Positions 13,332 to 32,289 of a stretch of DNA of 50,636 nt are shown here, piece after piece. Position 1 is the first letter of the stretch. Each line of letters begins with the position of its first letter. Position numbers and translations under genes: made by a program. Below the pieces are notes generated by a model. That model did no database searches and was not told the origin of the DNA. It worked only from the letters and a program-made list of their open reading frames with translations. The stretch is from a virus: IMG/VR virus record IMGVR_UViG_3300047178_000166, positions 1 through 50,636 of that record; one strand, given 5' to 3'.

Positions 13332-13344
13332 CCAGGGGGCGACC

Positions 13345-13950: not shown

Positions 13951-14090
13951 CCGCCAGGTTTCCCTTTGCGCGGGAGACGTCGCGGCCGACGATGGTGCCG
14001 TCCGCCGTCGCGGTGGGCTGGGTGGCTCCAGGGGTCGGCAGGGCACGCATGAAGCCGCCGACCCCAAACCTGGAGAGCTCGGAAGAATGA
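13947..14090 (+). CDS. Tiny coupled ORF (47 aa)
   Basis: It has a GTGA overlap at its 5' end and an ATGA overlap at its 3' end. There is no other support. Confidence 0.2.
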   Translation: MTARFPFARETSRPTMVPSAVAVGWVAPGVGRARMKPPTPNLESSEE

Positions 14091-14662
14091 CCACGATCCT
14101 GTGCGACCTCGACGGGACGCTTGTCGACACGGCACCGCTGGTCCGTGCCAGCTGCATCGGCGCGCTGGCCAGTCTCGGCATCGTGGCAAGCAACCTCGAC
14201 GAGCGTCCCGCGCCCGATGACGGCGTGTTCTGGACCGGCGTCGTTTCGTCGTTCGCCAGGCTGCGCGGCGTGTCCCTGGCGACCGTCCATGCCAGGCGTC
14301 GGCAGCTCTACATGGGCTCCCTGGTGCACGCGCAGGTGAACAAGGAACTGGTGCAGCGCATCCGGCGCGCTCGCCTGGAAGGGTCGTCTTCCGCATTGGT
14401 CACCAACGCGAGCAGGGTCAACGCCGATGCAATCCTTGGCACGCTGGGGATTGGCGACCTGTTCGACATACGTGTCTGCCGTGGCGACGTGTCGCAGCCC
14501 AAGCCGCACGCGGAGCCGTACACGTGCGCGATGCAGTTGCTGCGGGCCAGTCCCGCCGAGTGCTGCGCGTTCGAGGACACCGACGAAGGCATCGCTTCGG
14601 CGAACGCGGCGAACGTGGGCGTGGTGCACGACGTGCGCGGCTGGCAGGGGAGAGCATCGTGA
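14087..14662 (+). CDS. HAD-superfamily hydrolase (phosphatase-like)
   Basis: Motif I is DLDGTLVDT, motif II is VTNAS, and motifs III/IV are KP...FEDTDEG. Confidence 0.75.
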   Translation: MTTILCDLDGTLVDTAPLVRASCIGALASLGIVASNLDERPAPDDGVFWTGVVSSFARLRGVSLATVHARRRQLYMGSLVHAQVNKELVQRIRRARLEGSSSALVTNASRVNADAILGTLGIGDLFDIRVCRGDVSQPKPHAEPYTCAMQLLRASPAECCAFEDTDEGIASANAANVGVVHDVRGWQGRAS

Positions 14663-15155: not shown

Positions 15156-15721
15156 GCGACACCCTGCCCCCGGCCTTCTGCACGCAAGCCGAGTTCGCCC
15201 GACTGATGGGTGTGAGCAAGCCAGCGGTCACGCAATGGAAGGCGGCGGGTCGTCTCGTGCTGGTCGACGGCCGCGTGGACGTCGAGGCGACCAGAGCGGT
15301 CCTGGCGCGCTTCCGGCGGGAGGGCGACCCGCTTAACCCTGGTCCGAAGCCCGTCCTGGAGGGCTGGGAGCCCAAGGACGACGAGGAAGCCGAGCGCATC
15401 GCGGCCCTGGTCATCCTGGCCACGGGCTCCGAATGGACGACGGAAGAGGCGATCCGGGTGAAGGAGAGCCATCTGGCCCTGCTGAAGCGGCTCGAGTACG
15501 ACCAAAAGTCCGGGGCCGTGGTCGCGGTCGCCGAGGTCGCGGCTGCGGTGGGGGCGCAGTTCTCCCAGGTCCGCCAGCGGCTTCTCGCTATCCCCGCCGA
15601 GCAAGCCGAGGCAATCGCTCGCTGTCGTACGGTCCCGGAGGTCCGGGACCTGCTGGAGAGCCTGATCGTCGAGGTCCTACAGGCCCTGAGCCGTGGTGAC
15701 GGCGCGCCCGATGCCCCGTGA
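15152..15721 (+). CDS. terS: Terminase small subunit (Nu1-like, N-terminal HTH)
   Basis: GTGA overlap start. TQAEFARLMGVSKPAVTQWKAAGRL is HTH-like. It lies directly upstream of and overlaps terL. Confidence 0.7.
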   Translation: MSDTLPPAFCTQAEFARLMGVSKPAVTQWKAAGRLVLVDGRVDVEATRAVLARFRREGDPLNPGPKPVLEGWEPKDDEEAERIAALVILATGSEWTTEEAIRVKESHLALLKRLEYDQKSGAVVAVAEVAAAVGAQFSQVRQRLLAIPAEQAEAIARCRTVPEVRDLLESLIVEVLQALSRGDGAPDAP

Positions 15722-23800: not shown

Positions 23801-24854
23801 CGCCCTGTCGGTCGGCGGCGGCATCACCGACGCGGCCGGGAACAACCTGGTCGTGACAGGGGCCGCCGCGACCGTCGCGGGGGTCATCGTCGACGCGGTC
23901 GCGCCGACCATCACCTCGGTCACCTGCGCCCCGGGCGACTACGGCATCGGGTCCGCCCCGGCCATCGTGCTCGGACTGTCCAAGCCCGTCATCGTGTCCG
24001 GACCGATCCAGCTGCTGACCTCGGTCGGGTCCGCGACCTACGTCCCTGCGGGGAGCAGCGCGACCAGCCTGCGCTTCGCCGCGTCGGTGGCCGCTGGCAC
24101 CCTTCCCGGTACCCTGGCGGTGCTGGCCTTCCAAGCCAACGGCGGGTCGGTGGTCGACGCGGCCGGGAACGGGCTCGTGCAGGGGGGCGCGGCTGCGCTG
24201 CTCCAGGGCTGCGTCGCGGACGGCACCACGGCGACCGTCGTCGGCATCACGTCCAACCTCTCCGTGGTCGCGGTCGGAAGCACGGTCGAACTCCGGATAC
24301 AGACCAGCAAGCCGCTCGCAGTGCCGTCGCTAGGCGGCATCTCGGCCGCGCTCTCGAACGGCGCGACGGTGGCCCTGTCCTACGTCAGCGGATCTCTGCT
24401 CGGCTTCCTCTACGTCCCGGCCGGGACCGACGTCGCCGCGCCCGTGACGCTGGTTTCCTTGTCCGTCCCCGGCCCGCTGCTCGACGGCTTCGGCAACCCC
24501 GCCGACCTGACGGGCGCGGCGGGAACCATCGGTCAGGGCCTGTCGGTCGTCTCGGGGCTCCAGCCCATCCCATCGGCCTCGAGCCAGCTCGACCCCTACT
24601 GCCAGCCCATCGTCCCGGCCGAGTTCGTGGGGCTTCCTGCGGCGACGCTGACGCAATGGCTGGCCGACTGCCAGAACGCGCTTCAGCAGCTGGAGACAGG
24701 GGCGATTACCGTGTCCGTGAGCTACCAGGGGACCGGCGGCACCTCGGCGACCTTCACGGCTGCGGACTCCGACCGCCTGCGGCAGCGCATCCGGGCCCTG
24801 TCCTCCGCCCTGGGCCTGACGCCGCGCCGCCGCCCCATGCGACCGGGATTTTAA
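17802..24854 (+). CDS. Giant 2350-aa protein: beta-helix N-terminal region, about 12 Ig-like repeats, C-terminal gpW-like head-tail joining domain
   Basis: A single uninterrupted frame between terL and portal. See the findings for the domain evidence. Confidence 0.8.
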   Translation: MTAYVSAANGNHNVAATWTPAAVPGVGDTVTINHVVTVPAGVTWLLGASPGSCVQGSASAAVTQVVPGITVNSYHGYANWLQSAILTNNPTFANAGGASGGQLVVAAGATVQIRGDIVLNGGPMTLAAGAQLVFDTSAAPAGTVYRCEVANPYNISTGVLTCNGTAGSRCRISGTSANNWCISGGWRTVGVEGYTPYADWGAAMFYYTDTIQGGIPASTLQMCQTCATNTSASGLNVTGGVPTIVLSNGATATYQYNSAASLFWQTTQARTYTNTRQLRMGPAGITWNGATVKDSNGSTRSILSGYSVTQSGSTLTLTTTWSAPATAVGVPVCLMTDGSLLSYASGSGTSTLVFSGPASQSFVSTASCFVDTFINIAAGTITDASGGAVPQYGEGGGCWFAVQTSWINGSTTVTDGLPWWSFRPATSAAAASARSLTFGNSTAQGCTSVHVGDGVHTPSGINFYGSDFIGGVDNLAIVNGSQGSGITEGGGDIVLLTGGRIGTGPNELRLFSGCNFARRVVLQNADDFTFSECVFGDDLYMGVAGSKNLTVQHCLHVVPSGYVAGGQNYFVSFGSKYDSNIFCFDSPTLRNSHGLFCGFQSGALTGVSGTPQYAYITNNIVEAQRANASEGGNWMACTPITGGSTSASVPYNTCVVTGNIVVPQYNSIAGAAGPMSGYYQANGVLTMDAAPGQLNWKTLVQGNTFLTQATGNGCIAANEGGGTSGQFAGILDNIFWSPASTAVPHGPSYWDRHDNTVAVDECPAAAFDYNVHYNGQTTGYCNTGGTITSGGNSNAFTGGTNYPTGPYTGALYSTSLMPGVHDARFTGATPFLDQDRSTCKFDAVNGGPGTVASLVGQLFLRNANGIGGLYGLPASYNAAYTVDGVFGWIKAGFSPQVTAANQALQNGSSTGGYVGAVAPTLPPAAVITSVAASPSTGDQGVGSTVTLTVAFTRALTFSGGTPTLSLNSGGTATYVGGNGGTAYTFTTTVAAGQSAASLQATAYNANGGTTVDQFGTAASLGSVPAIAASPQIDGVAPTLAALAFSPSTGTLKAGASVAITLTASEPVTVTGSPTLSTNLGPAAFNAGASTATSLVFALTVPAGQTASPVAVSAFNLGGGTVLDGAGNALVQTLPAPGAAPNADGVAPVVSSVVFAPTSGFLGVGATYAISLAVSKSVTVTGSPALTMSDGSTAPLNAGASTPTSLVFGGTVHAGATASPLGVSSLNLNGGTIKDGPGNALNAAGATSAPTGGAPSADGVVPVVSYVHASPPSGDEGAGQTITFTVATSKAVTVVGAPSLTLNDGRSAAFVAGSSTPTSLAFTYTVQPGDVASQLSVTAFAMNGATILDEASNALVATGAVGVPTGGSPQVDGVIPVVSSVAFSPVSGTVPAGGTITITLALSKAITVTGAPSLTLSGGASAAYVPASSTPTSLAFTYTVQPGYAAAPVSVSGLSLSGATARDAAGNSLNASGATSAPTGGAPSADGVAPVVSSVSVSPQGADLGVGAAATFTLALSKAVTVSGAPSLTLTDGGSASYVGASSTPTALAFRYAVRAGDVAQALGVSALSLNGGTVTDAAGNALVSSGAAGTPAGAPQVDGVAPTVSGLSAAAGTYGAGATVAITVALSKACSVSGGAPVLTTPFGAATYSGAASGSQALVFDLVVPAGATGALTVGPLTGTIADAAGNPLVASGATGIVSGITLDGVAPVVASVTAAAGSYFSGEQVLIAVATSKAVTVSGTPSLATSIGTATYLPGSSSATVLEFSLTIASNAALGPISTTGLTDAGGSIVDEAGNALVATGAACALPGVVVVPNSPTVTGATATAGTYPAGSVLSIVLGFSMAVAFAGPSPILDLNIGAAHLASTTATTATFSVVVPAGAQAAVVVTDLNLNGGTITSVASGAALSGPCTFSLAGVFAAGAPPAVTGVSAPAGEYGAGATILVRVATSAATRLVDAAQPPVLWTALGPAYYVAASSTPVSLAFDLVVPPGASSSSLVTTALSVGGGITDAAGNNLVVTGAAATVAGVIVDAVAPTITSVTCAPGDYGIGSAPAIVLGLSKPVIVSGPIQLLTSVGSATYVPAGSSATSLRFAASVAAGTLPGTLAVLAFQANGGSVVDAAGNGLVQGGAAALLQGCVADGTTATVVGITSNLSVVAVGSTVELRIQTSKPLAVPSLGGISAALSNGATVALSYVSGSLLGFLYVPAGTDVAAPVTLVSLSVPGPLLDGFGNPADLTGAAGTIGQGLSVVSGLQPIPSASSQLDPYCQPIVPAEFVGLPAATLTQWLADCQNALQQLETGAITVSVSYQGTGGTSATFTAADSDRLRQRIRALSSALGLTPRRRPMRPGF
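20570..24560 (+). repeat. Coding tandem array of about 12 repeats of roughly 105-115 aa (Ig-like), inside the giant ORF
   Basis: Repeats begin DGVAPVVSSV / DGVIPVVSSV / DGVAPTVSGL. They share the consensus SKAVTVTGAPSLTL..G.SA.YV.GSSTPTSLAFTYTV.PGD....L.V.A..LNGGT..DAAGNAL. Confidence 0.85.
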
Positions 24855-24857
24855 GAC

Positions 24858-26573
24858 ATGGCATACCGCATCAGCAGGATACCGAACGCGCCCGTCGCCC
24901 CGGGGCGCGGGCTCGCGCTGCCGTCCCCCGGGGGACGGCCCAGGCACCTCGCGGGGCTCCAGGGCGGGCTCCAGGGCGCGGCTTTTCCTTACGACGCCGC
25001 CGCGATCACGACCCCGGAGTTCGGGGAGTGGCTGCCCTCCATCCGTGGCCCGGACATGGAGATCAACTACTGGCGCGACCGCATGGTCGCCCGCTCCAGG
25101 GACCTCGTTCGAAACGACGGCTGGTGCTCCGGCTCCATCACCCGGATACTGGACTCCCTGCTCGGCGGCAGCTACCGCCTCGCCTGCATGCCCGACTACC
25201 GCTTCCTCGCGCGGCAGGGTGGCCCGTCATACGATGCGGTGTGGGCCGAGGAATTCCGGCAGTTCGTTGAGGGCGAGTGGCGCGCCTGGAGCGAGGATAT
25301 CGGCCATTGGAACGACGCGACCGGCGAGATGACGGTCACTCAGCAGTTCCGTCAGTTCCTCTGGCACTACCTCGTCGACGGTGACGGCTTCGCGGTCTGC
25401 TACAGCCTTCCCGACCAGATCGGGCGGGGTGCCGCGAAATACGCGACCAGCTGGCAGGTCATCGACCCGGACCGCCTGAGCAACCCGAACAACATGGTCG
25501 ACCAGAAGCACCTGCGGGGCGGCGTCGAGCTGAACGAGCGCGGTCGGCCAATCGCCTACCACGTCCGGAAGGCGGAACAGAACTCGTGGTACGAGGCCGT
25601 CGAGTCGGTGACGTGGGAGCGCATCGAACGCGACGACCCGGACGGCTGGCAGAGGGCGATTCACCATCACTCCCGCGAGAGGGCCGGGCAGCATCGCGGC
25701 CTCGGAATCTTCCTTCCCGTCCTGGGGCGGCTGAAGATGCTCGCGAAATACTACGGGACCGAGCTCCAGGCCGCCGCCATCGCATCGACGTTCGGCACCT
25801 ACATCACTTCTCCTTTCGACCCGCAGCTCGTCGAGAGCGCGCTGGACGCGGGCAGCGACGGCGCGGGCGAGGCTTGGAGCTACTATCAGGGCATCCGCAG
25901 CGACTTCCACGAGCAGCACCGTCCGCAGCTCAACGGAGCGACAATCCCCACGCTCGCGCCGGGCGAAAAAATCGAGACCGTATCAGCAGAAAGGCCCAAT
26001 TCCGCGTTCAGCGACTTCACGCACGAGATGCTGAGGGGCGTGGCGTCCTGCATCAACGTCTCTTACGAGCAGCTGACGCAGGACTACTCGGAAACCAACT
26101 ACAGCAGCGCGCGTGCTGCCGTGGCCGAGACGGAGCGAAGCATCCGCCGCCGCCTTGCAGAGTTCAACTCCGGCTGCGCCAACAAGGTCTATGCGAACTT
26201 CCTCCAGGAGGTATTCGAGCAGGGCAAGGTGCCGCTGCCGCGCGGTGCCGTCGACTTCCTCGACGCGCGCACGGCCTACGCGCGCTGCCTGTGGCGCGGC
26301 CCCGGCGCGGGCCTGATCGACGGCCTGAAGGAGCGTCAGGCGACCGGGCTCGGCCTCGACCTGGGCCTTACGACGCTCCAGGAAGCCGTCGCGGGCGAGA
26401 GCGGTGCGGACTGGCAGGAGGTGCTCGAGCAGCGCGCCATCGAGCTCGCCAAGTGCAAGGAGCTCGGCCTTCCGCCCCCGAGCTGGTCGGCCCCGCCGCC
26501 GGGCTCCGGAGGGACGGACGACGACGAGGGCAAGGGGAAGAACGCGACCCCGACGCCGCCGCAGGCGAAGTAG
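24858..26573 (+). CDS. Portal protein, lambda family
   Basis: 571 aa. INYWRDRMVARSRDLVRNDGWCSGSITRILDSLLG fits the lambda-type portal N-terminal region. The position is as expected. Confidence 0.85.
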   Translation: MAYRISRIPNAPVAPGRGLALPSPGGRPRHLAGLQGGLQGAAFPYDAAAITTPEFGEWLPSIRGPDMEINYWRDRMVARSRDLVRNDGWCSGSITRILDSLLGGSYRLACMPDYRFLARQGGPSYDAVWAEEFRQFVEGEWRAWSEDIGHWNDATGEMTVTQQFRQFLWHYLVDGDGFAVCYSLPDQIGRGAAKYATSWQVIDPDRLSNPNNMVDQKHLRGGVELNERGRPIAYHVRKAEQNSWYEAVESVTWERIERDDPDGWQRAIHHHSRERAGQHRGLGIFLPVLGRLKMLAKYYGTELQAAAIASTFGTYITSPFDPQLVESALDAGSDGAGEAWSYYQGIRSDFHEQHRPQLNGATIPTLAPGEKIETVSAERPNSAFSDFTHEMLRGVASCINVSYEQLTQDYSETNYSSARAAVAETERSIRRRLAEFNSGCANKVYANFLQEVFEQGKVPLPRGAVDFLDARTAYARCLWRGPGAGLIDGLKERQATGLGLDLGLTTLQEAVAGESGADWQEVLEQRAIELAKCKELGLPPPSWSAPPPGSGGTDDDEGKGKNATPTPPQAK

Positions 26574-26583
26574 GAGACGGTCG

Positions 26584-26823
26584 ATGAGGCGGGGGCAGTC
26601 GGGGACCTGGTGGATCGTCAACCTGAGCTACCCCGGGGAGCCGCCCGTCTATTGGACGGCCGACGTGCGTGGCCAGGGGCATCACGGACTGTCCTTCGAT
26701 CACCGGCAGGCGGCGCAGTTCGACACGCCCGAGCAGGCACACTTCAACGCCCGCCTGCTCGGGCTGGCCGACGCGCTGCCGCACTACCGGGTCGAACACC
26801 ACGCCTGGATCGACGGCGTCTAG
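26584..26823 (+). CDS. Hypothetical protein (79 aa)
   Basis: ATG at 26584 with AGGAG 7 nt upstream. Confidence 0.5.
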   Translation: MRRGQSGTWWIVNLSYPGEPPVYWTADVRGQGHHGLSFDHRQAAQFDTPEQAHFNARLLGLADALPHYRVEHHAWIDGV

Positions 26824-26862
26824 TTGACGCTTGCGTCCGTTGTCCCTACCATCAGGGACAAG
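26824..26862 (+). promoter_or_regulatory. Promoter-operator module 2
   Basis: TTGACG, 17-nt spacer, TACCAT, overlapped by the palindrome TTGTCCCT-ACCATC-AGGGACAA at 26840-26861. It is nearly identical to the reverse complement of module 1. Confidence 0.6.
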
Positions 26863-26987
26863 AGGGCAGTTCCCTCGGCACCACACGGAGACGCACCAAT
26901 GCGAGAAAAAGAATCCCCGCCGCACGCACGACCCTGACTACTACGACCTGCCGCTTCCGAACGGCCTCACCCTCGGCCGTAGCGCGG

Positions 26988-27746
26988 TCAGGGCGATACC
27001 CTTTTCTTGATAGCATCAAGGTAACCCGTCTCGCGCTCGATACCAATGGCACGGAATCCTCCAGCCAACGCAGCTGACAACGTGCTGCCGCTCCCGGCGA
27101 ACGGGTCCAGCACGAGGCCGCCCGGTGGGGTAACTACTTCGATGAGGCACCCCAGAAGTTCGGCTGGCTTCTCCGTGGGGTGGTCGCCGTTACGGACAGG
27201 CTTGCAGGACAGCACGTTGCCGATGTCGCGACGCTGCGGCGGATTGCCCGTTCCGTTCGTGAAATGCAGCACGAACTCATGTTGATTGCGGAAGCAGGAG
27301 CCCATGCCGAAATAGGTCTTGTTCCACACCAGAACGCCGCAGTGCTTCAGGTCGGCACTCTCGATTGCGGCTGCCAGATGCGGAGCCATGCGCCAGTCGA
27401 TAAAAACCAGGGCGTGGCCTCCGGGAACCAGCAGATCGCGCCATAGCAAGGCACACTCCCGCATCATCCATACAAAGCTATGCGCCGTCAGGGCGTCATT
27501 GCCAAACCAATCGGCGGCACCCATTCCACGTGTCATGGCCTTCCTAGTCCCCTTGGATGCCTCCATCCTGGTGCCGCTGGAATACGGAGGGTCGGTTACA
27601 ACCGAGTCCACGCGGACGCCACGGTCTACCAATGCCCGCATGACCTGCAAGCAGTCGCCAATATAAATCTCGGATTGGCCATTATCGTGCGCCGGTGCCA
27701 GGGTAATGCTGGGAGCCTCTATGCTCAGTTTGGTGAGATTGGTCAT
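26988..27746 (-). CDS. Beta-class amino DNA methyltransferase (N6-adenine or N4-cytosine), orphan
   Basis: ATG at 27746 after AAGGAG. DPPY comes first (VVTDPPYSS), then HPTEKP and FAGSGST at the C-terminus. The region looks lower in GC than its neighbours. Confidence 0.85.
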   Translation of the reverse strand: MTNLTKLSIEAPSITLAPAHDNGQSEIYIGDCLQVMRALVDRGVRVDSVVTDPPYSSGTRMEASKGTRKAMTRGMGAADWFGNDALTAHSFVWMMRECALLWRDLLVPGGHALVFIDWRMAPHLAAAIESADLKHCGVLVWNKTYFGMGSCFRNQHEFVLHFTNGTGNPPQRRDIGNVLSCKPVRNGDHPTEKPAELLGCLIEVVTPPGGLVLDPFAGSGSTLSAALAGGFRAIGIERETGYLDAIKKRVSP

Positions 27747-27796
27747 GCGAGTCTCCTTCGGTATGGCAACGGCAAACCTTCGCTGCCGTCGATGCA
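27744..27796 (-). repeat. Duplicated leader cassette, copy 1 (ends exactly at the methyltransferase ATG)
   Basis: 31 nt (one mismatch), a 10-nt variable block, then 12 identical nt, compared with 28042-28094. Confidence 0.85.
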
Positions 27797-27810
27797 AGAT
27801 GCGTTGGCCT

Positions 27811-28044
27811 TCACCGTCTCGCGGCCGAGCCAGCCGCAGCGTCCCTCCACCGAGGATTTCTCAGGGGGACCCCGCCGTCAAAGGATTTATTCGTGGGCGC
27901 GCAACGCGTGGCTTGCGAGAGGGGGGGGCGTCCGCCCCGGCGATCTCGAGCGCGAGGGCGGCTGAACCGTGACGTGCTCCGCTCCTCCTTAGAGAGCAGG
28001 CGCAGGACAAGGATATCTTCCGGGCTCAGGTCTTCGAGTTTCAT
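27811..28044 (-). CDS. Hypothetical small protein (77 aa)
   Basis: Its ATG sits at the same position in the duplicated leader cassette as the methyltransferase ATG. The C-terminal half is low complexity. Confidence 0.35.
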   Translation of the reverse strand: MKLEDLSPEDILVLRLLSKEERSTSRFSRPRARDRRGGRPPLSQATRCAPTNKSFDGGVPLRNPRWRDAAAGSAARR

Positions 28045-28094
28045 GCGAGTCGCCTTCGGTATGGCAACGGCAGCCCCTCAGAGCCGTCGATGCA
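28042..28094 (-). repeat. Duplicated leader cassette, copy 2
   Basis: See copy 1. Confidence 0.85.
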
Positions 28095-28185
28095 GGGCCG
28101 GGGCCGCTCCGCAGGGGGCGGCCCTTTCCTTTTGCGCTGGCCGCAGAGGGCGCGGGGTGCGATCCTGTCGGCCGGGAGGAAGGTC

Positions 28186-28422
28186 ATGGGAGAGATCAGG
28201 CGCATCGTCGGGGGCTACGCGGCCTACCGTGGCGGGGTCCTCCTGCCGGGACGCTACGCGACCGCCCTGGCCGCCCGCGCCGCCCTCTTGATCGATGCCC
28301 AGGACCTGGAGCGCGCCGCCGCCAGCTGCGCCCCCGGCACCGTACCGTTCCAGGTCCTGGCCGACCTGTTCGACGCCGGGGACCAGAGGTCCCTGAGCGA
28401 CATGATGACCGCGCCGCCCTGA
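28186..28422 (+). CDS. Hypothetical protein (78 aa)
   Basis: ATG at 28186 after GGGAGGAAGG. Confidence 0.5.
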   Translation: MGEIRRIVGGYAAYRGGVLLPGRYATALAARAALLIDAQDLERAAASCAPGTVPFQVLADLFDAGDQRSLSDMMTAPP

Positions 28423-28469
28423 AGACGTCCGGGCCCGGCAAGGAAAATCCTTGCGTGGCGGTCGCATGT

Positions 28470-28745
28470 GTCCCCCTACGGGAAACCCGAATGGCCCGCC
28501 ACGGGCCACGGGAACGCGAAAAACGGCATGCCCGAAAACTCGTCACGGGGCACCCAGGGCGGGCACAATACGGGCCCGCGCACGGGGATACGGGAAACCC
28601 GAAACGGCCGCATAGCGCGAGGTGATTACCGAGAACAAAAGTTATCGGTAATCCCGTCCAAAGGTGACGCATGCAGCTGTTACGATAACAGTTACCGTAA
28701 CAGCTTGCCGTAACGTTATCCTGTAACGTTATCAGGTTTCGTTAC
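28470..28745. repeat. Repeat-dense, lower-GC non-coding region
   Basis: ACGGGAAACCCGAA-type repeats lie at 28478-28491, 28508-28526 and 28590-28607. A 9-bp inverted repeat GATTACCGA/TCGGTAATC lies at 28624-28653. A GTTAC/GTAAC array follows: 28679-28689, palindrome 28691-28701, and tandem GTAACGTTATC at 28710-28720 and 28723-28733. Confidence 0.85.
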
Positions 28746-28749
28746 AGGA

Positions 28750-28938
28750 TCACCGCTCCAGCCTGCCCATCGCCGCCGCCGCCTCGCGTGCGCGCGCGAG
28801 CTGCTCAAGGAGGATATCGGCGTCCCGCAGGTAGAGCTCGGACAGGTAGGTCGCGCCCGGCGTGTCGTGGCGCACGACGACCCGGTTCGGCAGGGCGAAC
28901 GCCTGGAAGCTGCTCTCGTGGTCCATGCCCGCAGGCAT
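28750..28938 (-). CDS. Hypothetical small protein (62 aa)
   Basis: The ORF has protein-like composition. GGAGGA lies 12 nt upstream of the ATG, which is a long spacing. Confidence 0.4.
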   Translation of the reverse strand: MPAGMDHESSFQAFALPNRVVVRHDTPGATYLSELYLRDADILLEQLARAREAAAAMGRLER

Positions 28939-28969
28939 GCCGCCCGCGAGTCCTCCAGCCCGAACGAAG

Positions 28970-28997
28970 AAGGGGCACCCCGAGCGGGGTGCCCCTT
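28970..28997 (-). terminator. Strong hairpin after the 392-aa gene
   Basis: AAGGGGCACCCC-GAGC-GGGGTGCCCCTT, a 12-bp perfect stem. On the minus strand it is followed by CTTCGTTCG. Confidence 0.6.
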
Positions 28998-29022
28998 GCC
29001 GTTCCGAGACGGGCGCGACGGG

Positions 29023-30201
29023 TCAGGCGTCGGCCAGCGACGACCTGATCCGGGCCAGCGACGCCTCTGCGCGGGTCGCCCGGAGCTCGGCAGCGGCGAC
29101 GCGGGATTCCGCGTCACGGGCGCGCGCCTCTGCCTCGGCGACCCGCTGCCCGATGGCGAGCAGCATGGCCGCGAGGTCGTCGGTCGGCCGGGCGACCTGC
29201 TCCGGCTCCCGCAGGATGACCTGCTGGTCAGCCACGGGCACCGGGTCGAGCGTGATGCCGACCTTCGGGGTGAAGGTCGTGTCGAGGCTCTCTGCGGGCG
29301 ACGCCTTGGTGATGGAGTAGATCGCGCCCGTCGAGACACCGAAACGGCTGGCGATCTCGCTGACCTTCATGCCGCCGTCTCGCATGGCCCTGGCCGCCGC
29401 ATGGTTGATCCGGCGACTTCTGTAGGGCTTGCGACCCTTCAGCGTGAGGGCCGTGTCGGGGGATTCTGCGACTGGCTGCGCTGGCGCGGCGACCTTCGGG
29501 CCGAACGTCGTGCCGGTGACCTCCGAGACGAACGGCAGTCGGTGCTCGGCGGACACCGAGCGGAAGTTCACGCCGAGCTTCTTGGCCAGCGCGCCCTGCG
29601 ATTTCACGGTCCCCGAGGTGATGGCGTCGTAGGCCTCGGACGCGAGCATGCGTCCGATCATGCGGCCGGAGGCCTCGGGGCGGTGCGAGTTCGTGGTGGT
29701 CTGCATGGGGAGGTTTTCCTTTTCAGCTTCATGGCGGGCTAGGCGGCGATAGACGTAGGCGGGCGTGAATCCGTAGAGCTCCGCGAGCTCCCTGCCGTTC
29801 TTGGCGGCACCCGCCCTGAGCAGCTCTGCGGCCTCGGCAGCGGGGAACGGCTTCCGCTTGGCCCGGGTCGGCGCGATGACGTCCGGAGCGGCCTGCGGCA
29901 CGTCCGGTGCCAGCTCCAGCTCTTCCCGCAAGTGCTCGACGGGCGGGAAAAGGTCGAGGACCTGGGCCGTCTCATCCGGTGGGGCGACGTAAGTGCTGGT
30001 TTCGATGCGCTTGATCCGGCCCATCATCAGCTTGCGAAAACCATCGTCGACCGAGCTCGGGAGCGTGGTCACGACCCCCGATTCCGGCCATAGGATCCGC
30101 AAATGGTTAGTCCCGTTCCTCTCCAGGAGCGTCCAACCCCGGGCCTTGGCCCACAGGGCCAGCCCCCTCTCTCCGCTGGTGCGGAACTGTAGCTGCGGCA
30201 T
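29023..30201 (-). CDS. Multi-HTH DNA-binding protein with HicA-like N-terminal domain and C-terminal coiled coil (392 aa)
   Basis: LALWAKARGWTLLERNGTNHLRILWPESGVVTTLPSS resembles the HicA/YcfA fold pattern. HTH-like segments are RELAELYGFTPAYVYRRL, QGALAKKLGVNFRSV and VSEIASRFGVSTGAIYSI. The tail is Ala/Arg/Glu-rich. Confidence 0.5.
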   Translation of the reverse strand: MPQLQFRTSGERGLALWAKARGWTLLERNGTNHLRILWPESGVVTTLPSSVDDGFRKLMMGRIKRIETSTYVAPPDETAQVLDLFPPVEHLREELELAPDVPQAAPDVIAPTRAKRKPFPAAEAAELLRAGAAKNGRELAELYGFTPAYVYRRLARHEAEKENLPMQTTTNSHRPEASGRMIGRMLASEAYDAITSGTVKSQGALAKKLGVNFRSVSAEHRLPFVSEVTGTTFGPKVAAPAQPVAESPDTALTLKGRKPYRSRRINHAAARAMRDGGMKVSEIASRFGVSTGAIYSITKASPAESLDTTFTPKVGITLDPVPVADQQVILREPEQVARPTDDLAAMLLAIGQRVAEAEARARDAESRVAAAELRATRAEASLARIRSSLADA

Positions 30202-30248
30202 GTCTTTCTTCCTCCGTGTGGCGACGGCCGACCTTGTGTTAGGTCCTT

Positions 30249-30289
30249 TTCGGATATCCCGTCAATGGATTTCCTTCGGGATATCCGAA
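30249..30289. promoter_or_regulatory. 13-bp perfect inverted repeat in a divergent intergenic region
   Basis: TTCGGATATCCCG, 15-nt spacer, CGGGATATCCGAA. Each arm contains the palindrome GGATATCC. TTGACA lies at about 30334. Confidence 0.55.
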
Positions 30290-30377
30290 TGCAAGGACAA
30301 GCGAATCCTTGCGGTTTTCCCGTTGACACCCGCCGCGCGCCGCCCTTCCCTGTCGCTCCAGCAAGGAGAAGCACCAC

Positions 30378-30842
30378 GTGTTCACAGTCATCACGGAGGT
30401 CGAGGACTACGATCTCGACACGGACAACGCCCTGATCGCGACCTACGACGCCTGGGGCGAGGTCACCGACCGCCGCAGCGTCGGGGCCGTGCCGACGCAC
30501 GAAGACGCCGTGCAGGTGCACCCCGAGCTCTGCCTGCTGGCCGACGCCTTCGCGCACTTGGCCGAGTGCGCGGGGCTGGTGCCCGACGACAACCGGACCA
30601 TAGCGCACCTCTACCAGAACTCGCGGGGAGCCGCCCTGGAAGCGGCCGAGGCGACCCTGCGTACTGCCGCCTGCATGTCGATGGACATGACGTCGAAGCA
30701 GCTCCATCGGCAGGATCGGCTGACCGGGTGGGCGTCCGACATTCGGTCCGAGAGCCGGGTGCCGTGGGTCTGCAAGGCGCACGCCGACGCCGTTGATGCT
30801 GCCGTCAGGCGCAGGGCCCGTACGGTGCCGCTGCCCGTCTGA
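30378..30842 (+). CDS. Hypothetical protein (154 aa)
   Basis: GTG at 30378 with AAGGAG 9 nt upstream. Confidence 0.55.
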   Translation: MFTVITEVEDYDLDTDNALIATYDAWGEVTDRRSVGAVPTHEDAVQVHPELCLLADAFAHLAECAGLVPDDNRTIAHLYQNSRGAALEAAEATLRTAACMSMDMTSKQLHRQDRLTGWASDIRSESRVPWVCKAHADAVDAAVRRRARTVPLPV

Positions 30843-31023
30843 CGGGAAAGGCCGTCCCCGGCAACAGGGACGGCCTTCGTGAACTTCGGGCGTGTGGTCC
30901 GGGAGGGGCTGCACGGTGCACACGGCCAAAGGAAAGCCGCTGCGTATCGCGTTCGGATAAGCCCCGCCCTTCCGGCCCGACTGTTGCCCCGATGCTTGCA
31001 CCGGGCGTCCGGGGCGTAACCCC

Positions 31024-31278
31024 CTACTTGTGGTCGGCGGCGTTTTCCTTGGCGATCTCTGCCTCTAGCCAGGCATCGACCTGCGCGCACGCCTTTTCGT
31101 AGGCGTCCCTGTCCTGTGTCGCGAGACGCCTGATCTCGAGGGGCGCGGACGTCGCGTGGCAGAAGGTGCCGACCGCGACCCAGCCCTCCCAGCCGCTGCT
31201 CCGGACCTGTCGGCCCGTCTCCCGGCAGTTCTCGCGTATGCCCTCCACGGCGTATCTGGCGACCTTGGCGAGGCGCAT
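31024..31278 (-). CDS. Hypothetical protein (84 aa)
   Basis: ATG at 31278 after GGAGAA. The rest of the long ORF 31024..32211 is antisense shadow of the protease gene. Confidence 0.5.
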   Translation of the reverse strand: MRLAKVARYAVEGIRENCRETGRQVRSSGWEGWVAVGTFCHATSAPLEIRRLATQDRDAYEKACAQVDAWLEAEIAKENAADHK

Positions 31279-31383
31279 TCGGTTTCTCCGTTGCCCTCCA
31301 GCGTCGCCCGTCCCGGCCCCCGCCGCAAGCCGTCCTTTGCCCGGGAGCTGCGGGCGTGAAGGATTCGCGCCGGAGGGCCTGCC

Positions 31384-32289
31384 GTGTCCCGTTTCGCGTT
31401 CCTCGCGCAAAAGCTCTACAACTGCCCGTTGGCGATCACCCCCGAGAAGGGGGAGATGGTCGCGGCCGCGCTCGCGGAGCGGCTGGGCGTGTCCCGCTTC
31501 CGCAGGTCGAGCGGCGAGACGGTGCCGCTGGCCCCGGCCGCGTGGATGGACGACGACGAGGACGTCAGCTCGGCCAGGGCCCGCCGCAAGGAGGACCAGG
31601 GCTACGACGTAGTGTCCGGGGTCGCGGTCATCCCCGTCCGGGGCACCCTGGTCCAAAGGCTCGGGTCGGTGCGTCCCTACTGCGGCATGACCGGCTACGA
31701 CGGCATCCGGCTTTCGGTGATGTGCGCGCTGTCGGACGAGAAAGTCGATGCGATCGTCCTCGACATCGACTCCCCCGGTGGGGAGGTATGCGGATGCTTC
31801 GACTTGGTGGACACCATCTACAACGCGCGCGGCATCAAGCCGATCTGGTCGATTTTGAACGAGAGCGCGTTCAGCGCGGCCTACGCGATCGCCTCTGCCG
31901 CCGACGTCGTGACCGTCCCCCGCACCGGGGGCACCGGGAGCGTCGGGGTGATCCTGATGCACACCGATATCAGCAAGGCCCTCTCGAAGGAGGGCGTGAC
32001 CGTGACCCTGATCACCTACGGCGACCGCAAGGGCGAGGGCTCCAGCTACGCCCCCCTCGCGGACGAGGCCCTGTCCCGGCTCCAGGCCGACGTCGACGCG
32101 ATGGGCGACCTGTTCGTGCAGACCGTGGCGAGAAACAGGGGCATCCCCGCGAAGCAGGTCCGAGACACGGAAGCGGGAACTTTTCTCGGGAGCGCGGGAG
32201 TCGCGGGCCAATACGCTGACCGCGTGATGAGCCCCGACCAGGCGTTCCGCGCGCTGCTCGCGTCGCTGCCTTCGAAGAGGAAAAACTGA
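31384..32289 (+). CDS. Head maturation protease, S49 (SppA/ClpP-like) family
   Basis: IVLDIDSPGGEV and ESAFSAAYAIASAAD are motifs typical of S49 prohead proteases. Confidence 0.85.
   Translation: MSRFAFLAQKLYNCPLAITPEKGEMVAAALAERLGVSRFRRSSGETVPLAPAAWMDDDEDVSSARARRKEDQGYDVVSGVAVIPVRGTLVQRLGSVRPYCGMTGYDGIRLSVMCALSDEKVDAIVLDIDSPGGEVCGCFDLVDTIYNARGIKPIWSILNESAFSAAYAIASAADVVTVPRTGGTGSVGVILMHTDISKALSKEGVTVTLITYGDRKGEGSSYAPLADEALSRLQADVDAMGDLFVQTVARNRGIPAKQVRDTEAGTFLGSAGVAGQYADRVMSPDQAFRALLASLPSKRKN

What the first reader, a model, noticed from the sequence alone, without database searches (positions are those of the whole stretch)
26574..31383. A roughly 4.8-kb accessory island splits the portal gene from the protease gene
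In lambda-type head modules the portal gene is followed directly by the S49 protease gene. Here eight small or regulatory ORFs of mixed orientation are inserted between them:
- a 79-aa ORF;
- an orphan beta-class methyltransferase;
- a 77-aa ORF;
- a 78-aa ORF;
- a 62-aa ORF;
- the 392-aa HicA-like/multi-HTH protein;
- a 154-aa ORF;
- an 84-aa ORF.

The island also holds at least three divergent or convergent intergenic regions full of repeats, and parts look lower in GC. Interrupting a late structural operon with bidirectionally transcribed genes is unusual. It marks a moron or defence/anti-defence hotspot. None of the small proteins is recognisable to me.
Basis: partly seen in the sequence, partly recalled or inferred. 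Interest (0 to 1): 0.65.

Follow-up and report, generated by a model that had tools for sequence, protein, structure and literature searches.

The report
Accessory gene island splitting phage head genes
A 4.8-kb block of extra genes sits exactly between the portal and head-protease genes of a lambda-type phage, a junction where relatives have the two genes overlapping. The block holds one DNA methyltransferase, one unusual DNA-binding regulator and five or six small proteins with no detectable relatives. It is a clear case of a known kind of phage "moron" or accessory hotspot, and its function is untested.

Summary
Portal (24858-26573, PF05136) and S49 protease (31384-32289) are intact and separated by 4,810 nt.

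- **Relatives:** there are about 15 non-redundant relatives (portal 34-55% identical). In nine the two genes overlap by 1-4 nt or lie within 11 nt. Three carry a GIY-YIG homing endonuclease at this junction, two carry a small ORF, and one has an 82-nt gap. None carries any island gene. The island is therefore an insertion at a recurrently used junction, not a set of head-assembly genes.
- **Coding status:** seven of the eight ORFs are well supported as coding (GC3 0.69-0.92, Shine-Dalgarno sequences). The 77-aa ORF is doubtful.
- **Transcription units:** the units are bounded by strong hairpins, as expected for morons.
- **Methyltransferase:** it is an orphan beta-class enzyme on a lower-GC cassette (60% against 69%).
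- **392-aa protein:** it combines a HicA-like alpha-beta-beta-beta-alpha domain, two or three Hin-type HTHs and a probable coiled coil. It faces the 154-aa ORF across an AT-rich spacer that holds a perfect 13-bp inverted repeat.
- **Small proteins:** all are ORFans in every search run.

The defence/anti-defence reading is untested. The closest analogue is the anti-CRISPR region just upstream of the protease/scaffold gene in Mu-like Pseudomonas phages. Verdict: new member of a known kind, moderate interest.

The parts
24858..26573 (+). Portal gene (lambda gpB family). Forms the left flank of the island.
   Evidence: PF05136 at 301 bits. Aligns to relatives through residue ~544-568.
26584..26823 (+). 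o79, a 79-aa ORFan co-directional with the portal gene and probably read with the late genes.
   Evidence: GC1/2/3 is 0.71/0.46/0.91. GGAGA-N6-ATG lies 10 nt after the portal stop. No family or homologue was found. A relation to the junction ORFs of L008/L014 is not supported (BLASTP E 0.007; hhalign probability 0.2).
26824..26895 (+). Spacer after o79, holding the only sigma-70-like promoter match in the island and a hairpin cluster.
   Evidence: TTGACG-17-TACCAT at 26824-26852. Fold of -26.6 kcal/mol, z -3.2.
26988..27746 (-). Orphan beta-class N6/N4 DNA methyltransferase on a lower-GC cassette.
   Evidence: PF01555 at 106.5 bits against a cut-off of 26.7. phrog_67 at 1e-55. DPPY lies at aa 69-72 and DPFAGSG at aa 231-237 of the 269-aa ORF (read). 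GC is 60% and GC3 0.70. It is 49-52% identical to actinophage MTases and 50% to an Azospirillum prophage MTase. No nuclease domain was found in the neighbours.
27743..27796 (-). Leader copy 1: 50 nt plus Shine-Dalgarno plus ATG in front of the MTase.
   Evidence: 54-nt direct repeat, 87% identical to 28041-28094. It is unique to these two places in the window and absent from IMG/VR.
27811..28044 (-). o77, a doubtful 77-aa ORF, possibly a decayed gene or short leader peptide.
   Evidence: No GC3 signal (0.67/0.63/0.69). Only the first ~22 codons look coding. pI 11.6. It starts behind leader copy 2, whose SD is weakened (AAGGCG instead of AAGGAG).
28041..28094 (-). Leader copy 2, in front of o77.
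28100..28134 (+). Canonical intrinsic terminator on the + strand (11-bp GC stem plus TTTCCTTTTG). It stands between portal and protease on the late-gene strand.
   Evidence: -28 kcal/mol. It underlies a sub-threshold Rfam BjrC68 hit (24 bits against a cut-off of 39).
28186..28422 (+). o78, a 78-aa ORFan.
   Evidence: GC1/2/3 is 0.72/0.56/0.92. GGGAGGAAGGTC-ATG. No homologue found.
28423..28749 (.). Non-coding, palindrome-rich spacer with the lowest GC in the contig. It carries a GTAAC/GTTAC motif cluster, TAACGTTA twice and three CGGGAwwwCCGA-like sites. Function unknown (protein-binding array, terminators or an origin-like site).
   Evidence: GC is 58% overall and 45-49% at 28601-28770. z = -6.6 on both strands. 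Repeats. Motif enrichment P about 7e-5. No credible small ORF and no Rfam family.
28750..28938 (-). o62, a 62-aa ORFan downstream of o392.
   Evidence: GC1/2/3 is 0.75/0.48/0.92. GGAGGA lies 12 nt before the ATG. No Pfam or PDB relative and none in IMG/VR.
28962..29004 (-). Terminator-like hairpin directly after o392.
   Evidence: 12-bp perfect stem, -33.7 kcal/mol, z -4.1. One of only two perfect inverted repeats of at least 13 nt in the contig.
29023..30201 (-). o392, a DNA-binding regulator. It has an N-terminal HicA-like domain (aa 1-68), two or three Hin/resolvase-type HTHs (about aa 112-160, 185-225 and 263-299) and an Ala/Arg/Glu-rich C-terminal helix (probable coiled coil, about aa 340-392).
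   Evidence: HTH_23, HTH_28 and HTH_7 at aa 256-299, plus weak PHROG HTH hits at aa 111-157. Exhaustive HMMER found stand-alone 70-85-aa proteins matching aa 1-68 and tandem-HTH proteins matching aa 246-308. Those stand-alone proteins hit PF07927 HicA_toxin below threshold (best 25.9 bits against 27). The AF2 model is H-E-E-E-H with pLDDT 79. The top Foldseek hits are HicA toxins 6g26, 4p78 and 6hpb (E 0.18-1.5). GC3 0.87.
30202..30377 (.). Divergent AT-rich control region between o392 and o154, with a perfect 13-bp inverted repeat TTCGGATATCCCG-N15-CGGGATATCCGAA (30249-30289).
   Evidence: GC 58%. Fold of -30.9 kcal/mol, z -5.6. One of only two such perfect inverted repeats in the contig.
30378..30842 (+). 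o154, an acidic (pI 5.0) 154-aa ORFan divergent from o392.
   Evidence: GC1/2/3 is 0.70/0.49/0.90. AAGGAGAA-N7-GTG. The only match in the 5.8-billion-protein index is its own gene call. No match in INPHARED, PDB or IMG/VR. The AF2 single-sequence model is unusable (pLDDT 44).
30848..30877 (.). Bidirectional hairpin between the convergent o154 and o84.
   Evidence: 11-bp perfect stem. -25.5 kcal/mol on + and -26.9 on - (z -2.8 and -4.1).
31024..31278 (-). o84, an 84-aa ORFan divergent from the protease gene.
   Evidence: GC1/2/3 is 0.65/0.51/0.88. GGAGAAACCGA-ATG. No homologue found.
31384..32289 (+). S49 head-maturation protease (lambda gpC type). Forms the right flank of the island.
   Evidence: PF01343 at 95.6 bits. 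The N-terminus aligns from residue 1-7 with relatives.

Best explanation
The region is a mosaic accessory (moron-type) island. It accumulated at a permissive junction of a lambda-type head gene cluster (terL, gpW, portal | protease, scaffold, gpD, gpE) in a complete, circularly assembled phage genome of about 50.5 kb.

Shown:
- The junction is ancestrally a translationally coupled portal-stop/protease-start overlap.
- It is recurrently invaded in relatives, by a GIY-YIG homing endonuclease or by a small ORF.
- In this phage it carries 4.8 kb that no relative has.
- The island consists of several separate gene units, each with its own Shine-Dalgarno sequence and bounded by strong hairpins.

Units:
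1. o79, co-directional with the portal gene.
2. A lower-GC cassette with an orphan beta-class DNA methyltransferase behind a duplicated leader.
3. o78.
4. o392 (with or without o62), facing o154 across an AT-rich spacer that holds a perfect 13-bp inverted repeat.
5. o84.

Inferred:
- The methyltransferase methylates phage DNA and so blunts host restriction-type defences.
- o392 is a sequence-specific DNA-binding regulator. Through its Hin-type HTHs, and dimerised by its C-terminal helix, it would bind the inverted repeat and the related CGGGAwwwCCGA sites in the 28423-28749 spacer. That would give the island autonomous control, independent of late transcription.
- The five soluble, mostly acidic ORFans are host-interaction genes (anti-defence, or exclusion of other phages). 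This is by analogy with the anti-CRISPR operons inserted just upstream of the protease/scaffold gene in Mu-like Pseudomonas phages.
- A canonical + strand terminator (28100-28134) and three opposite-strand blocks lie between portal and protease. The protease-to-capsid genes must therefore be reached either by antiterminated late transcription or from a new promoter in 31279-31383.
For: - **Head module:** lambda-type identity is shown.
- **Synteny:** the genes overlap by 1-4 nt or lie within 11 nt in nine relatives. The gap is 82 nt in one, 241-331 nt with a small ORF in two, and 841-845 nt with GIY-YIG in three.
- **Island genes elsewhere:** no island gene occurs in any of the 57 portal-related loci fetched (L001-L057), apart from distant MTase paralogues elsewhere in two.
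- **Coding status:** GC3 and SD support coding.
- **Unit boundaries:** hairpins bound the units.
- **MTase cassette:** its composition is foreign, and its relatives are orphan MTases in phage early regions.
- **o392:** domain evidence comes.
- **Operator candidates:** the inverted repeat and motif enrichment are shown.
- **Analogue:** described in PMC3993853 (anti-CRISPR region between the Mu G homologue and the protease/scaffold gene) and PMC4378225 (low-GC regions of genomic plasticity in head genes).
Against: - No function is demonstrated for any island gene except by family membership of the MTase.
- No PADLOC, PHROG, Pfam or NCBIfam hit suggests defence or anti-defence for the ORFans.
- Six of the ORFs have native GC3. 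They are therefore not recent imports from a compositionally different source and could be long-standing functional phage genes.
- Promoters were not identified. There is one consensus match, on the 'wrong' strand for most genes.
- The closest relatives available are only 55% identical in the portal, so the timing and stepwise build-up of the island cannot be reconstructed.
- The binding of o392 to the repeats is inference.
Confidence: 0.7

Rival explanations
1. The o392/o154 module, with the palindrome-rich spacer, is part of the phage's own core regulatory circuitry rather than dispensable cargo. It could be a lysogeny or immunity switch, a late-gene regulator, or a replication or partition site with its binding protein, lodged inside the head cluster.
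For: - The layout is divergent genes across an AT-rich spacer with a perfect inverted repeat, which is the classic repressor/cro arrangement.
- o392 is a multi-HTH DNA binder.
- The 327-nt spacer is the most AT-rich, palindrome-dense place in the genome, which is origin- or centromere-like.
- No CI-like repressor, integrase or replication initiator was recognised anywhere else in the contig.
- The ORFs have native GC3.
Against: - All relatives do without these genes at this position, and none of the long related loci carries a homologue of them anywhere in the DNA held.
- Other HTH candidates exist in the early region, such as 9558-9983 and 8541-8792.
- Nothing ties o392 to any known repressor, Rep or ParB family.
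Confidence: 0.15
2. o392 (with or without o62) is a HicA-type toxin-antitoxin or abortive-infection module. The HicA-like RNase domain would be the toxin, neutralised in cis or by o62, so the island would be a defence or addiction cassette.
For: - The N-terminal domain has HicA topology, and the G-T-x-H motif (H33) is conserved in 8 of 9 family members.
- The best structural matches are HicA toxins.
- Homologues hit PF07927 just below threshold.
- In L061 a stand-alone homologue overlaps a downstream HTH_3 gene, in toxin-antitoxin-like fashion.
Against: - o392 itself gives no PF07927 hit.
- The Foldseek E-values are not significant (0.18 or higher).
- The domain is fused to HTHs rather than free.
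- o62 shows no HicB, RHH or Xre similarity.
- Other stand-alone homologues sit in uni-directional phage early or replication clusters, and the neighbouring genes compared (L058, L059, L061, L062) share no similarity with any island ORF.
- There is no PADLOC hit beyond a 22-residue HTH match.
Confidence: 0.08
3. The island is a discrete mobile element (transposon, insertion sequence, integrative element or phage satellite) that inserted once into the junction.
For: - The boundaries coincide precisely with the gene ends.
- The HTH_23/HTH_28/HTH_7 domains of o392 also occur in transposase and resolvase N- or C-termini.
- Relatives carry a mobile homing endonuclease at the same site.
Against: - No transposase, integrase, recombinase catalytic domain or endonuclease is present in the island.
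- There is no remnant of the GIY-YIG gene.
- There are no convincing terminal inverted or direct repeats. The best boundary pairs are 70-73% over 22-29 nt, at chance level for 70% GC.
- Composition is heterogeneous, with only the MTase cassette deviant, which points to several events.
Confidence: 0.04
4. The genes are head-assembly accessory factors, or the arrangement is an assembly chimera.
For: o79 is co-directional with and abuts the portal gene. The position is inside the head cluster.
Against: - No relative has these genes.
- There are no structural-protein family hits.
- Five of the eight ORFs are on the opposite strand.
- A chimeric join would not leave both flanking genes intact to the codon.
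- The island ORFs share the contig's codon-position GC.
- The contig closes on itself with an exact 127-nt overlap.
Confidence: 0.03

Closest known systems
Morons / regions of genomic plasticity in phage structural operons (concept from HK97/HK022/lambda comparisons, own knowledge; Pseudomonas Mu-like phage RGPs, PMC4378225)
   Same: - Extra genes are present in one phage and absent at the same junction in relatives.
- They are inserted between two conserved late genes.
- They have their own translation signals and terminator-like hairpins.
- Part of the island is of deviant (lower) GC.
- Most of the ORFs are short and of unknown function.
   Different: - It is unusually large (4.8 kb, 7-8 ORFs) and bidirectional.
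- It breaks a normally translationally coupled portal/protease pair.
- Most of its ORFs have native GC3.
- Promoters and lysogenic expression are not shown.
Anti-CRISPR (acr-aca) region of Mu-like Pseudomonas aeruginosa phages, between the Mu G homologue and the protease/scaffold gene (PMC3993853)
   Same: - It is an operon-like insertion between two highly conserved head-morphogenesis genes, immediately upstream of the head protease gene.
- Its content varies among relatives.
- It holds small soluble ORFans plus an HTH regulator.
- There is an inverted repeat in the control region.
   Different: - No sequence similarity to any annotated Acr or Aca in the libraries searched.
- The HTH protein is 392 aa with three domain types, rather than a small single-HTH Aca.
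- Its orientation is divergent, not co-directional.
- The upstream neighbour is the portal gene, not a Mu G homologue.
- Inhibition of any defence system is untested.
HicA toxin of HicAB type II toxin-antitoxin systems (PF07927; PDB 6g26, 4p78, 6hpb)
   Same: The N-terminal 68 aa of o392 has predicted alpha-beta-beta-beta-alpha topology, a G-T-x-H motif, best fold matches to HicA, and homologues that are stand-alone 70-85-aa proteins.
   Different: - Profile scores are below the Pfam threshold.
- The domain is fused to DNA-binding domains.
- No HicB partner was found.
- Homologues lie in phage early gene clusters rather than in toxin-antitoxin pairs.
Phage orphan beta-class N6/N4 DNA methyltransferases (PF01555; phrog_67)
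   Same: The domain, the motif order (DPPY then FxGxG) and the size match. It is 49-52% identical to orphan MTases of Mycobacterium and Gordonia phages and to that of an Azospirillum prophage.
   Different: It is located inside the head gene cluster instead of the early region, and it sits behind a duplicated 54-nt leader.
Free-standing GIY-YIG homing endonuclease genes in phage intergenic junctions (seen here in relatives L007/L009/L010)
   Same: They occupy exactly the same portal|protease junction, which shows that the site tolerates and attracts insertions.
   Different: The window has no endonuclease or remnant of one.

Membership tests
Moron / accessory island in a phage late operon | Present in this phage but absent at the same junction in related phages | tested here: met
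   About 15 non-redundant relatives were compared and none has an island gene. In nine, the portal stop and protease start overlap by 1-4 nt or lie within 11 nt.
Moron / accessory island in a phage late operon | Own transcription signals (promoter and terminator) flanking the inserted gene(s) | tested here: inconclusive
   Strong hairpins bound the units. Only one sigma-70-like promoter match was found. The host's promoter type is unknown and there are no expression data.
Moron / accessory island in a phage late operon | Nucleotide composition different from the surrounding genome | tested here: inconclusive
   Met for the MTase cassette (GC 60%, GC3 0.70 against 69% and about 0.9). Not met for o79, o78, o62, o392, o154 and o84 (GC3 0.87-0.92).
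Moron / accessory island in a phage late operon | Dispensable for virion production; expressed from the prophage | not testable with these tools
   Needs deletion mutants and transcriptomics.
acr-aca anti-CRISPR locus | Inserted between conserved head-morphogenesis genes next to the protease/scaffold gene (Mu-like phage type) | tested here: met
   The island ends 0 nt before the protease start. The comparison is with PMC3993853 Fig. 1 legend.
acr-aca anti-CRISPR locus | Small acr gene(s) followed in the same operon by a small HTH Aca repressor | tested here: not met
   The HTH protein is 392 aa, multi-domain and divergent from o154. Only o62 is co-directional, and it lies downstream of o392.
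acr-aca anti-CRISPR locus | Sequence similarity to a known Acr or Aca family | tested here: not met
   No PHROG, Pfam, NCBIfam or PDB hit for the small ORFs. No dedicated Acr/Aca library was available.
acr-aca anti-CRISPR locus | Inhibition of a CRISPR-Cas or other defence system | not testable with these tools
   Needs a phage-challenge or plasmid-targeting assay.
HicA toxin (PF07927) / HicAB toxin-antitoxin | Match to the HicA_toxin profile above the curated threshold | tested here: not met
   The o392 N-terminus gives no hit. Its stand-alone homologues score 12.5-25.9 bits against a cut-off of 27.
HicA toxin (PF07927) / HicAB toxin-antitoxin | dsRBD-like alpha-beta-beta-beta-alpha fold | tested here: inconclusive
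   The AF2 model from a 9-sequence alignment has pLDDT 78.8 and elements H9-20, E24-28, E34-38, E43-47, H53-69. Foldseek top hits are HicA (6g26 probability 0.85; 4p78 TM 0.54/0.64), but the E-values are 0.18-1.5.
HicA toxin (PF07927) / HicAB toxin-antitoxin | Conserved catalytic histidine in the G-S/T-x-H motif | tested here: inconclusive
   N-G-T-N-H33 is present and conserved in 8 of 9 family members. Equivalence to the HicA catalytic His is by motif resemblance only (own knowledge of HicA).
HicA toxin (PF07927) / HicAB toxin-antitoxin | Adjacent HicB antitoxin gene | tested here: not met
   o62 and o154 have no HicB, RHH or Xre similarity. The compared neighbours of the stand-alone homologues are unrelated to any island ORF.
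Beta-class N6/N4 DNA methyltransferase (PF01555), orphan | Profile match above threshold | tested here: met
   106.5 bits against 26.7. phrog_67 at 1.2e-55. PADLOC MTase_II at 5e-33.
Beta-class N6/N4 DNA methyltransferase (PF01555), orphan | Motif IV (D/S-P-P-Y) N-terminal to motif I (FxGxG) | tested here: met
   DPPY at aa 69-72 and DPFAGSG at aa 231-237 of the 269-aa ORF (translation).
Beta-class N6/N4 DNA methyltransferase (PF01555), orphan | No cognate restriction endonuclease adjacent | tested here: met
   The neighbours o79, o77 and o78 have no nuclease or any other domain hit. A novel nuclease cannot be formally excluded.
Lambda-type head module | gpA terminase, gpW, gpB portal, S49 gpC protease, gpD decoration and gpE capsid in this order | tested here: met
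   PF05876/PF20454, PF02831, PF02924 and PF03864, PF05136 and PF01343.

The most novel reading that the evidence does not exclude
The island is a self-regulated anti-defence (or inter-phage exclusion) locus, analogous to acr-aca regions. In it o154, o78, o62, o84 and o79 would be new inhibitor families. o392 would be a new class of locus regulator, coupling a HicA-like RNA-binding or RNase domain to tandem Hin-type HTHs that read the CGGGAwwwCCGA palindromes. The portal|protease junction of lambda-type heads would then be a general, minable hotspot for such cargo.
Probability: 0.22. Interest if true: 0.7.

Novelty: new member of a known kind. Interest (0 to 1): 0.4.

Why it matters
If the reading is right, the portal|protease junction of lambda-type head modules becomes a defined address for mining phage accessory cargo. 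In relatives this junction is a 4-nt overlap, yet here and in five relatives it is invaded. This would extend the logic that uncovered anti-CRISPRs next to the protease/scaffold gene of Mu-like phages.

The island offers five or six soluble ORFans with no detectable relatives, plus an unusual HicA-like/triple-HTH regulator, as concrete candidates for anti-defence screens. It also poses a clear transcriptional question: how are the protease, scaffold, decoration and capsid genes expressed across 4.8 kb of opposing genes and a canonical terminator?

On present evidence it is still a well-documented example of a known phenomenon, not a new mechanism.

Tried and rejected
1. **Homology searches for the ORFans.** Pfam, PHROGs, PADLOC and NCBIfam were scanned, also at E up to 10. 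The 5.8-billion-protein word index was searched with o392, with o154 and with a concatenate of o79+o84+o78+o62. IMG/VR pattern scans were run for each ORF, tblastn against INPHARED, blastn against PLSDB and PDB sequence searches. Nothing was found except the MTase, the HTHs and the HicA-like domain. The concatenated query did not even return the window's own ORFs.
2. **Closer relatives.** Scans of GTDB genomes, IMG/VR and JGI metagenomes with the portal found nothing above 55% identity. The source contig could not be located by exact protein look-up.
3. **o79 as a counterpart of the junction ORFs of L008/L014.** BLASTP gave E 0.007, but hhalign gave probability 0.2. Rejected.
4. **o62 as a HicB-like antitoxin** (my impression from the sequence). 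No Pfam or PDB support. Rejected as untested speculation.
5. **Structure of o154.** The single-sequence AF2 model has pLDDT 44 and was not used.
6. **sRNA reading of 28053-28134.** The Rfam BjrC68 hit scores 24 bits against a cut-off of 39 and is explained by the terminator hairpin. Not accepted.
7. **Transposon-like ends, a GIY-YIG remnant, or paralogues of island genes elsewhere in the contig.** None found.
8. **A late-promoter motif shared between 31279-31383 and the rest of the genome.** Only chance 11-mers.
9. **The duplicated leader in IMG/VR.** No match.
10. **The Azospirillum prophage small ORF upstream of its MTase.** It is unrelated to o77.

Full report
**1. What is there**

The window is about 69% GC and closes on itself with an exact 127-nt terminal overlap. 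It is therefore a complete, circularly assembled phage genome of about 50.5 kb.

The right arm is a textbook lambda-type head module followed by contractile-tail genes:

- gpA-type large terminase, 15693-17741 (PF05876 and PF20454)
- a gpW domain at the end of the ORF 17802-24854 (PF02831)
- lambda-family portal, 24858-26573 (PF05136)
- S49 protease, 31384-32289 (PF01343)
- a scaffold-like acidic protein
- gpD decoration protein (PF02924) and gpE capsid protein (PF03864)

**2. Are the ORFs real?**

All eight ORFs exist. In this high-GC genome the codon-position GC is a strong test, because known genes show GC1/2/3 of about 0.65/0.50/0.90.

| ORF | Coordinates | Codon-position GC | Assessment |
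|---|---|---|---|
| o79 | 26584-26823 + | fits the pattern (GC3 0.87-0.92) | supported |
| o78 | 28186-28422 + | fits the pattern | supported |
| o62 | 28750-28938 - | fits the pattern | supported |
| o392 | 29023-30201 - | fits the pattern | supported |
| o154 | 30378-30842 + | fits the pattern | supported |
| o84 | 31024-31278 - | fits the pattern | supported |
| MTase | 26988-27797 - | GC3 0.69-0.70, GC 60% | real gene of foreign composition |
| o77 | 27811-28044 - | 0.67/0.63/0.69 | doubtful |

Each supported ORF has a Shine-Dalgarno sequence at a sensible distance. o77 looks coding for only about 22 codons, then turns Arg-rich with pI 11.6. I treat it as a decayed gene or leader peptide.

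**3. Is the arrangement unusual? Synteny**

Portal-based scans of GTDB genomes, IMG/VR and JGI metagenomes returned 57 loci. About 15 of these are non-redundant and carry both the portal gene (34-55% identical) and the protease gene.

I extended the portal frame to its stop and located the protease start.

| Gap between portal stop and protease start | Loci |
|---|---|
| 4-nt overlap | L001, L002, L005, L006, L013 |
| -1 nt | L040 |
| +2 nt | L004 |
| +11 nt | L011 |
| overlap by raw tblastn coordinates (-15 nt); not resolved because the portal frame runs off the contig | L012 |
| 82 nt | L003 |
| 241 and 331 nt, each holding one small co-directional ORF | L008, L014 |
| 841-845 nt, holding a 259-aa ORF | L007, L009, L010 |

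The ancestral state is therefore a translationally coupled pair.

- The small ORFs in L008 and L014 are homologous to each other (E 1e-8).
- The 259-aa ORF matches the GIY-YIG catalytic domain (25.8 bits against a cut-off of 22.6). It is a free-standing homing endonuclease.
- No island protein has a tblastn match in any locus, apart from distant MTase paralogues elsewhere in L011 and L017.

That criterion is not met. The junction is a recurrent insertion site, and this phage carries by far the largest load.

**4. Anatomy of the island**

From left to right:

- **(a) o79.** It lies 10 nt after the portal stop, followed by a hairpin cluster and the only sigma-70-like promoter match in the island.
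- **(b) The methyltransferase cassette, on the minus strand.**
  - The enzyme matches PF01555 at 106.5 bits.
  - DPPY (aa 69-72) lies before DPFAGSG (aa 231-237), which is the beta-class order.
  - It is 49-52% identical to orphan MTases in the early regions of Mycobacterium and Gordonia phages, and 50% to one in an Azospirillum prophage.
  - Its leader, SD and ATG (27743-27796) are duplicated at 87% identity in front of o77 (28041-28094). The repeat is unique to these two places and was not found in IMG/VR.
- **(c) A canonical + strand intrinsic terminator** at 28100-28134, followed by o78.
- **(d) A 327-nt non-coding spacer, 28423-28749.**
  - It contains the lowest-GC stretch of the whole contig.
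  - It folds far better than shuffles on both strands (z -6.6), which points to DNA palindromes rather than a strand-specific RNA.
  - It holds a cluster of GTAAC/GTTAC motifs and two TAACGTTA palindromes.
  - It has no credible ORF and no Rfam family.
- **(e) o62 and o392 on the minus strand,** separated by a 12-bp perfect hairpin (-33.7 kcal/mol).
- **(f) A 176-nt AT-rich divergent spacer** with the perfect inverted repeat TTCGGATATCCCG-N15-CGGGATATCCGAA.
- **(g) o154, a bidirectional hairpin, and then o84,** which is convergent with o154 and divergent from the protease gene.

Only two perfect inverted repeats of at least 13 nt (spacer up to 30) exist in the 50.6-kb contig. Both are in the island.

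The half-site CGGGATATCCGA recurs with up to 2 mismatches at 28479, 28591 and 28645 in the 327-nt spacer. That is 3 of the 13 non-seed matches genome-wide falling in 0.65% of the sequence (P about 7e-5). This links the two spacers as a possible common regulon.

**5. The 392-aa protein**

Pfam sees one Hin/homeodomain-type HTH at aa 256-299. PHROG fragments suggest another at aa 111-157.

An exhaustive HMMER search of 1.8 billion cluster representatives found no full-length relative. It found two partial classes:

- **Stand-alone 70-85-aa proteins matching aa 1-68** (E down to 1e-12). This match validates the upstream ATG at 30201, whereas the deposited gene call started 43 codons later.
- **Tandem-HTH repeat proteins matching aa 246-308.**

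The evidence on the N-terminal domain is as follows.

- The stand-alone proteins hit the HicA_toxin profile just below threshold. The best is 25.9 bits against 27, and five of eight give a hit.
- A 9-sequence alignment gives an AF2 model with pLDDT 79 and helix-strand-strand-strand-helix topology.
- The best PDB fold matches are the HicA toxins 6g26, 4p78 and 6hpb. Their E-values are non-significant, at 0.18-1.5.
- A G-T-x-H motif (H33) is conserved in 8 of 9 sequences.

'HicA-like' is therefore a fair description of the fold. Membership of the HicA toxin family is not established. No HicB-like partner exists.

The stand-alone homologues sit in uni-directional phage early or replication clusters containing DNA polymerase A, PD-(D/E)xK nuclease and DUF6378 genes.

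I read o392 as a sequence-specific DNA-binding regulator with an added RNA-binding or RNase-like module. It is probably dimerised by its Ala/Arg/Glu-rich C-terminal helix. That last point comes from inspecting the sequence only.

**6. The small proteins**

o79, o78, o62, o84 and o154 have no detectable relatives in the following searches:

- Pfam, PHROGs, PADLOC and NCBIfam
- the 5.8-billion-protein index (the second query was a concatenate, and its negative result is weak)
- IMG/VR
- INPHARED (o154 by tblastn; the whole island as DNA), PLSDB (island DNA) and PDB (o154 and o62)

All are predicted to be soluble, without hydrophobic segments, and are neutral to acidic (pI 5.0-6.7). The single-sequence model of o154 was too poor to use.

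**7. How it most likely works**

Shown:

- The island is an insertion at a permissive, recurrently invaded junction.
- It is modular, with per-gene SDs and hairpins.
- One cassette is of foreign composition and encodes an orphan MTase.
- One module has the layout of an autoregulated switch.

Inferred:

- The MTase protects phage DNA from restriction-type defences.
- o392 binds the inverted repeat and the related sites, and so controls o154 and itself independently of the late programme.
- The ORFans act on the host or on competing phages.

The closest documented analogue is the anti-CRISPR region of Mu-like Pseudomonas phages. [quoted passage not shown] It coincides with low-GC regions of genomic plasticity (PMC4378225).

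The resemblance is positional and architectural only. The defining features of an acr-aca locus are not met or could not be tested. These are a small Aca in the same operon, similarity to known families, and inhibitory activity.

One consequence is worth testing. The protease-to-capsid genes are now separated from the terminase-portal genes by three opposite-strand blocks and a canonical terminator. They need either lambda-style antiterminated late transcription or a new promoter in 31279-31383.

**8. Rivals**

- **Core regulatory, origin or partition function for the o392/o154/spacer module.** This cannot be excluded. No repressor, integrase or initiator was recognised elsewhere. However, relatives lack these genes at this site.
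- **HicA-type toxin-antitoxin or abortive-infection module.** This is weakened by sub-threshold scores, by the fusion to HTHs and by the absence of an antitoxin.
- **Single mobile element.** There is no recombinase or transposase, there are no terminal repeats, and there is no GIY-YIG remnant.
- **Head-assembly role, or assembly chimera.** Both are contradicted by synteny, by the intact flanking genes and by the shared codon-position GC.

**9. Verdict**

This is a new, unusually large and bidirectional member of a known kind of phage accessory island. It contains a previously undescribed domain architecture (HicA-like domain, tandem HTHs and a probable coiled coil) and five ORFans.

Interest is moderate (0.4). 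It is a good, well-delimited target for anti-defence screening, but nothing here shows a new mechanism.

Noticed in passing
window 17802-24854 (+): A single 2,350-aa ORF (GC3 0.90) lies between the large terminase and the portal gene and ends in a bona fide lambda gpW head-completion domain (PF02831, 37.6 bits, within the last 119 aa). Relatives have only a short gap here, and one of them (L013) shows a gpW-like match in it. About 2,270 aa of repeat-rich, Ala/Gly/Thr/Ser/Val-rich sequence (recurring 'SKAVTV(S/T)G.PSLTL'-type units) therefore appear fused in frame to gpW. No Pfam hit for the first 666 aa.
   Followed up: partly
window 1-127 and 50510-50636: An exact 127-nt terminal direct repeat. 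The contig is a circular assembly, so it is a complete phage (or phage-plasmid) genome of ~50.5 kb rather than a prophage fragment. A weak ParA-like gene lies at 3834-4493 (-).
   Followed up: partly
L007 2498-3277; L009 6849-7628; L010 3129-3908: Relatives carry a 259-aa GIY-YIG homing-endonuclease-like gene exactly between portal and protease. Its stop overlaps the protease start. It has a long Lys/Arg/Glu-rich repeat tail ('WTPERRAA...').
   Followed up: yes
L008 8610-8855; L014 11596-11931: Two other relatives carry homologous small ORFs (~80-110 aa, E 1e-8 to each other) at the same junction. Function unknown.
   Followed up: partly
window 27743-27796 and 28041-28094: A 54-nt leader with SD and ATG is duplicated (87% identity) in front of the MTase and of the doubtful o77. 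It is reminiscent of mobile regulatory cassettes that shuffle small genes in other phages. It has no other copy in the window or in IMG/VR.
   Followed up: partly
window 28423-28749: The most AT-rich, palindrome-dense 327 nt of the genome, lying between two convergent ORFs. It holds a GTAAC/GTTAC cluster, TAACGTTA twice and CGGGAAACCCGA twice. No ORF or Rfam family was found. It could be an origin-like, centromere-like or multi-operator site. Unexplained.
   Followed up: partly
window 5829-7289 (-): A second DNA methyltransferase in the genome: a 486-aa C5-cytosine (Dcm-type) enzyme (PF00145, 170 bits), in the early region.
   Followed up: no
window 43-1286 (+): An AbiEi-like ORF followed by an AbiEii nucleotidyltransferase toxin (PF08843, 80.6 bits). 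This is a type IV toxin-antitoxin / abortive-infection pair carried by the phage.
   Followed up: no
L005 9207-10115; L006 6179-7027; L009 9173-10021; L010 5475-6371: In several relatives the gpD-like decoration gene matches in two pieces separated by ~570 nt. This suggests a decoration protein with a large inserted domain.
   Followed up: no
window 47343-48575 (+): A 410-aa protein with an N-terminal HTH-like segment and a metallophosphoesterase match (phrog_221, 1e-10), lying between the tail-fibre and lysis genes.
   Followed up: no
window 13078-13950 (+): An ORF upstream of the terminase genes matches a 'minor tail protein' PHROG (phrog_1924, 8e-38), an odd position for a tail gene. A HAD-family hydrolase follows at 14087-14662.
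   Followed up: no
window 29023-30201 (-): The gene call stored in the public protein collection for o392 starts 43 codons too late (349 aa). That start truncates the HicA-like domain, which homology shows to begin at the ATG at 30201.
   Followed up: yes
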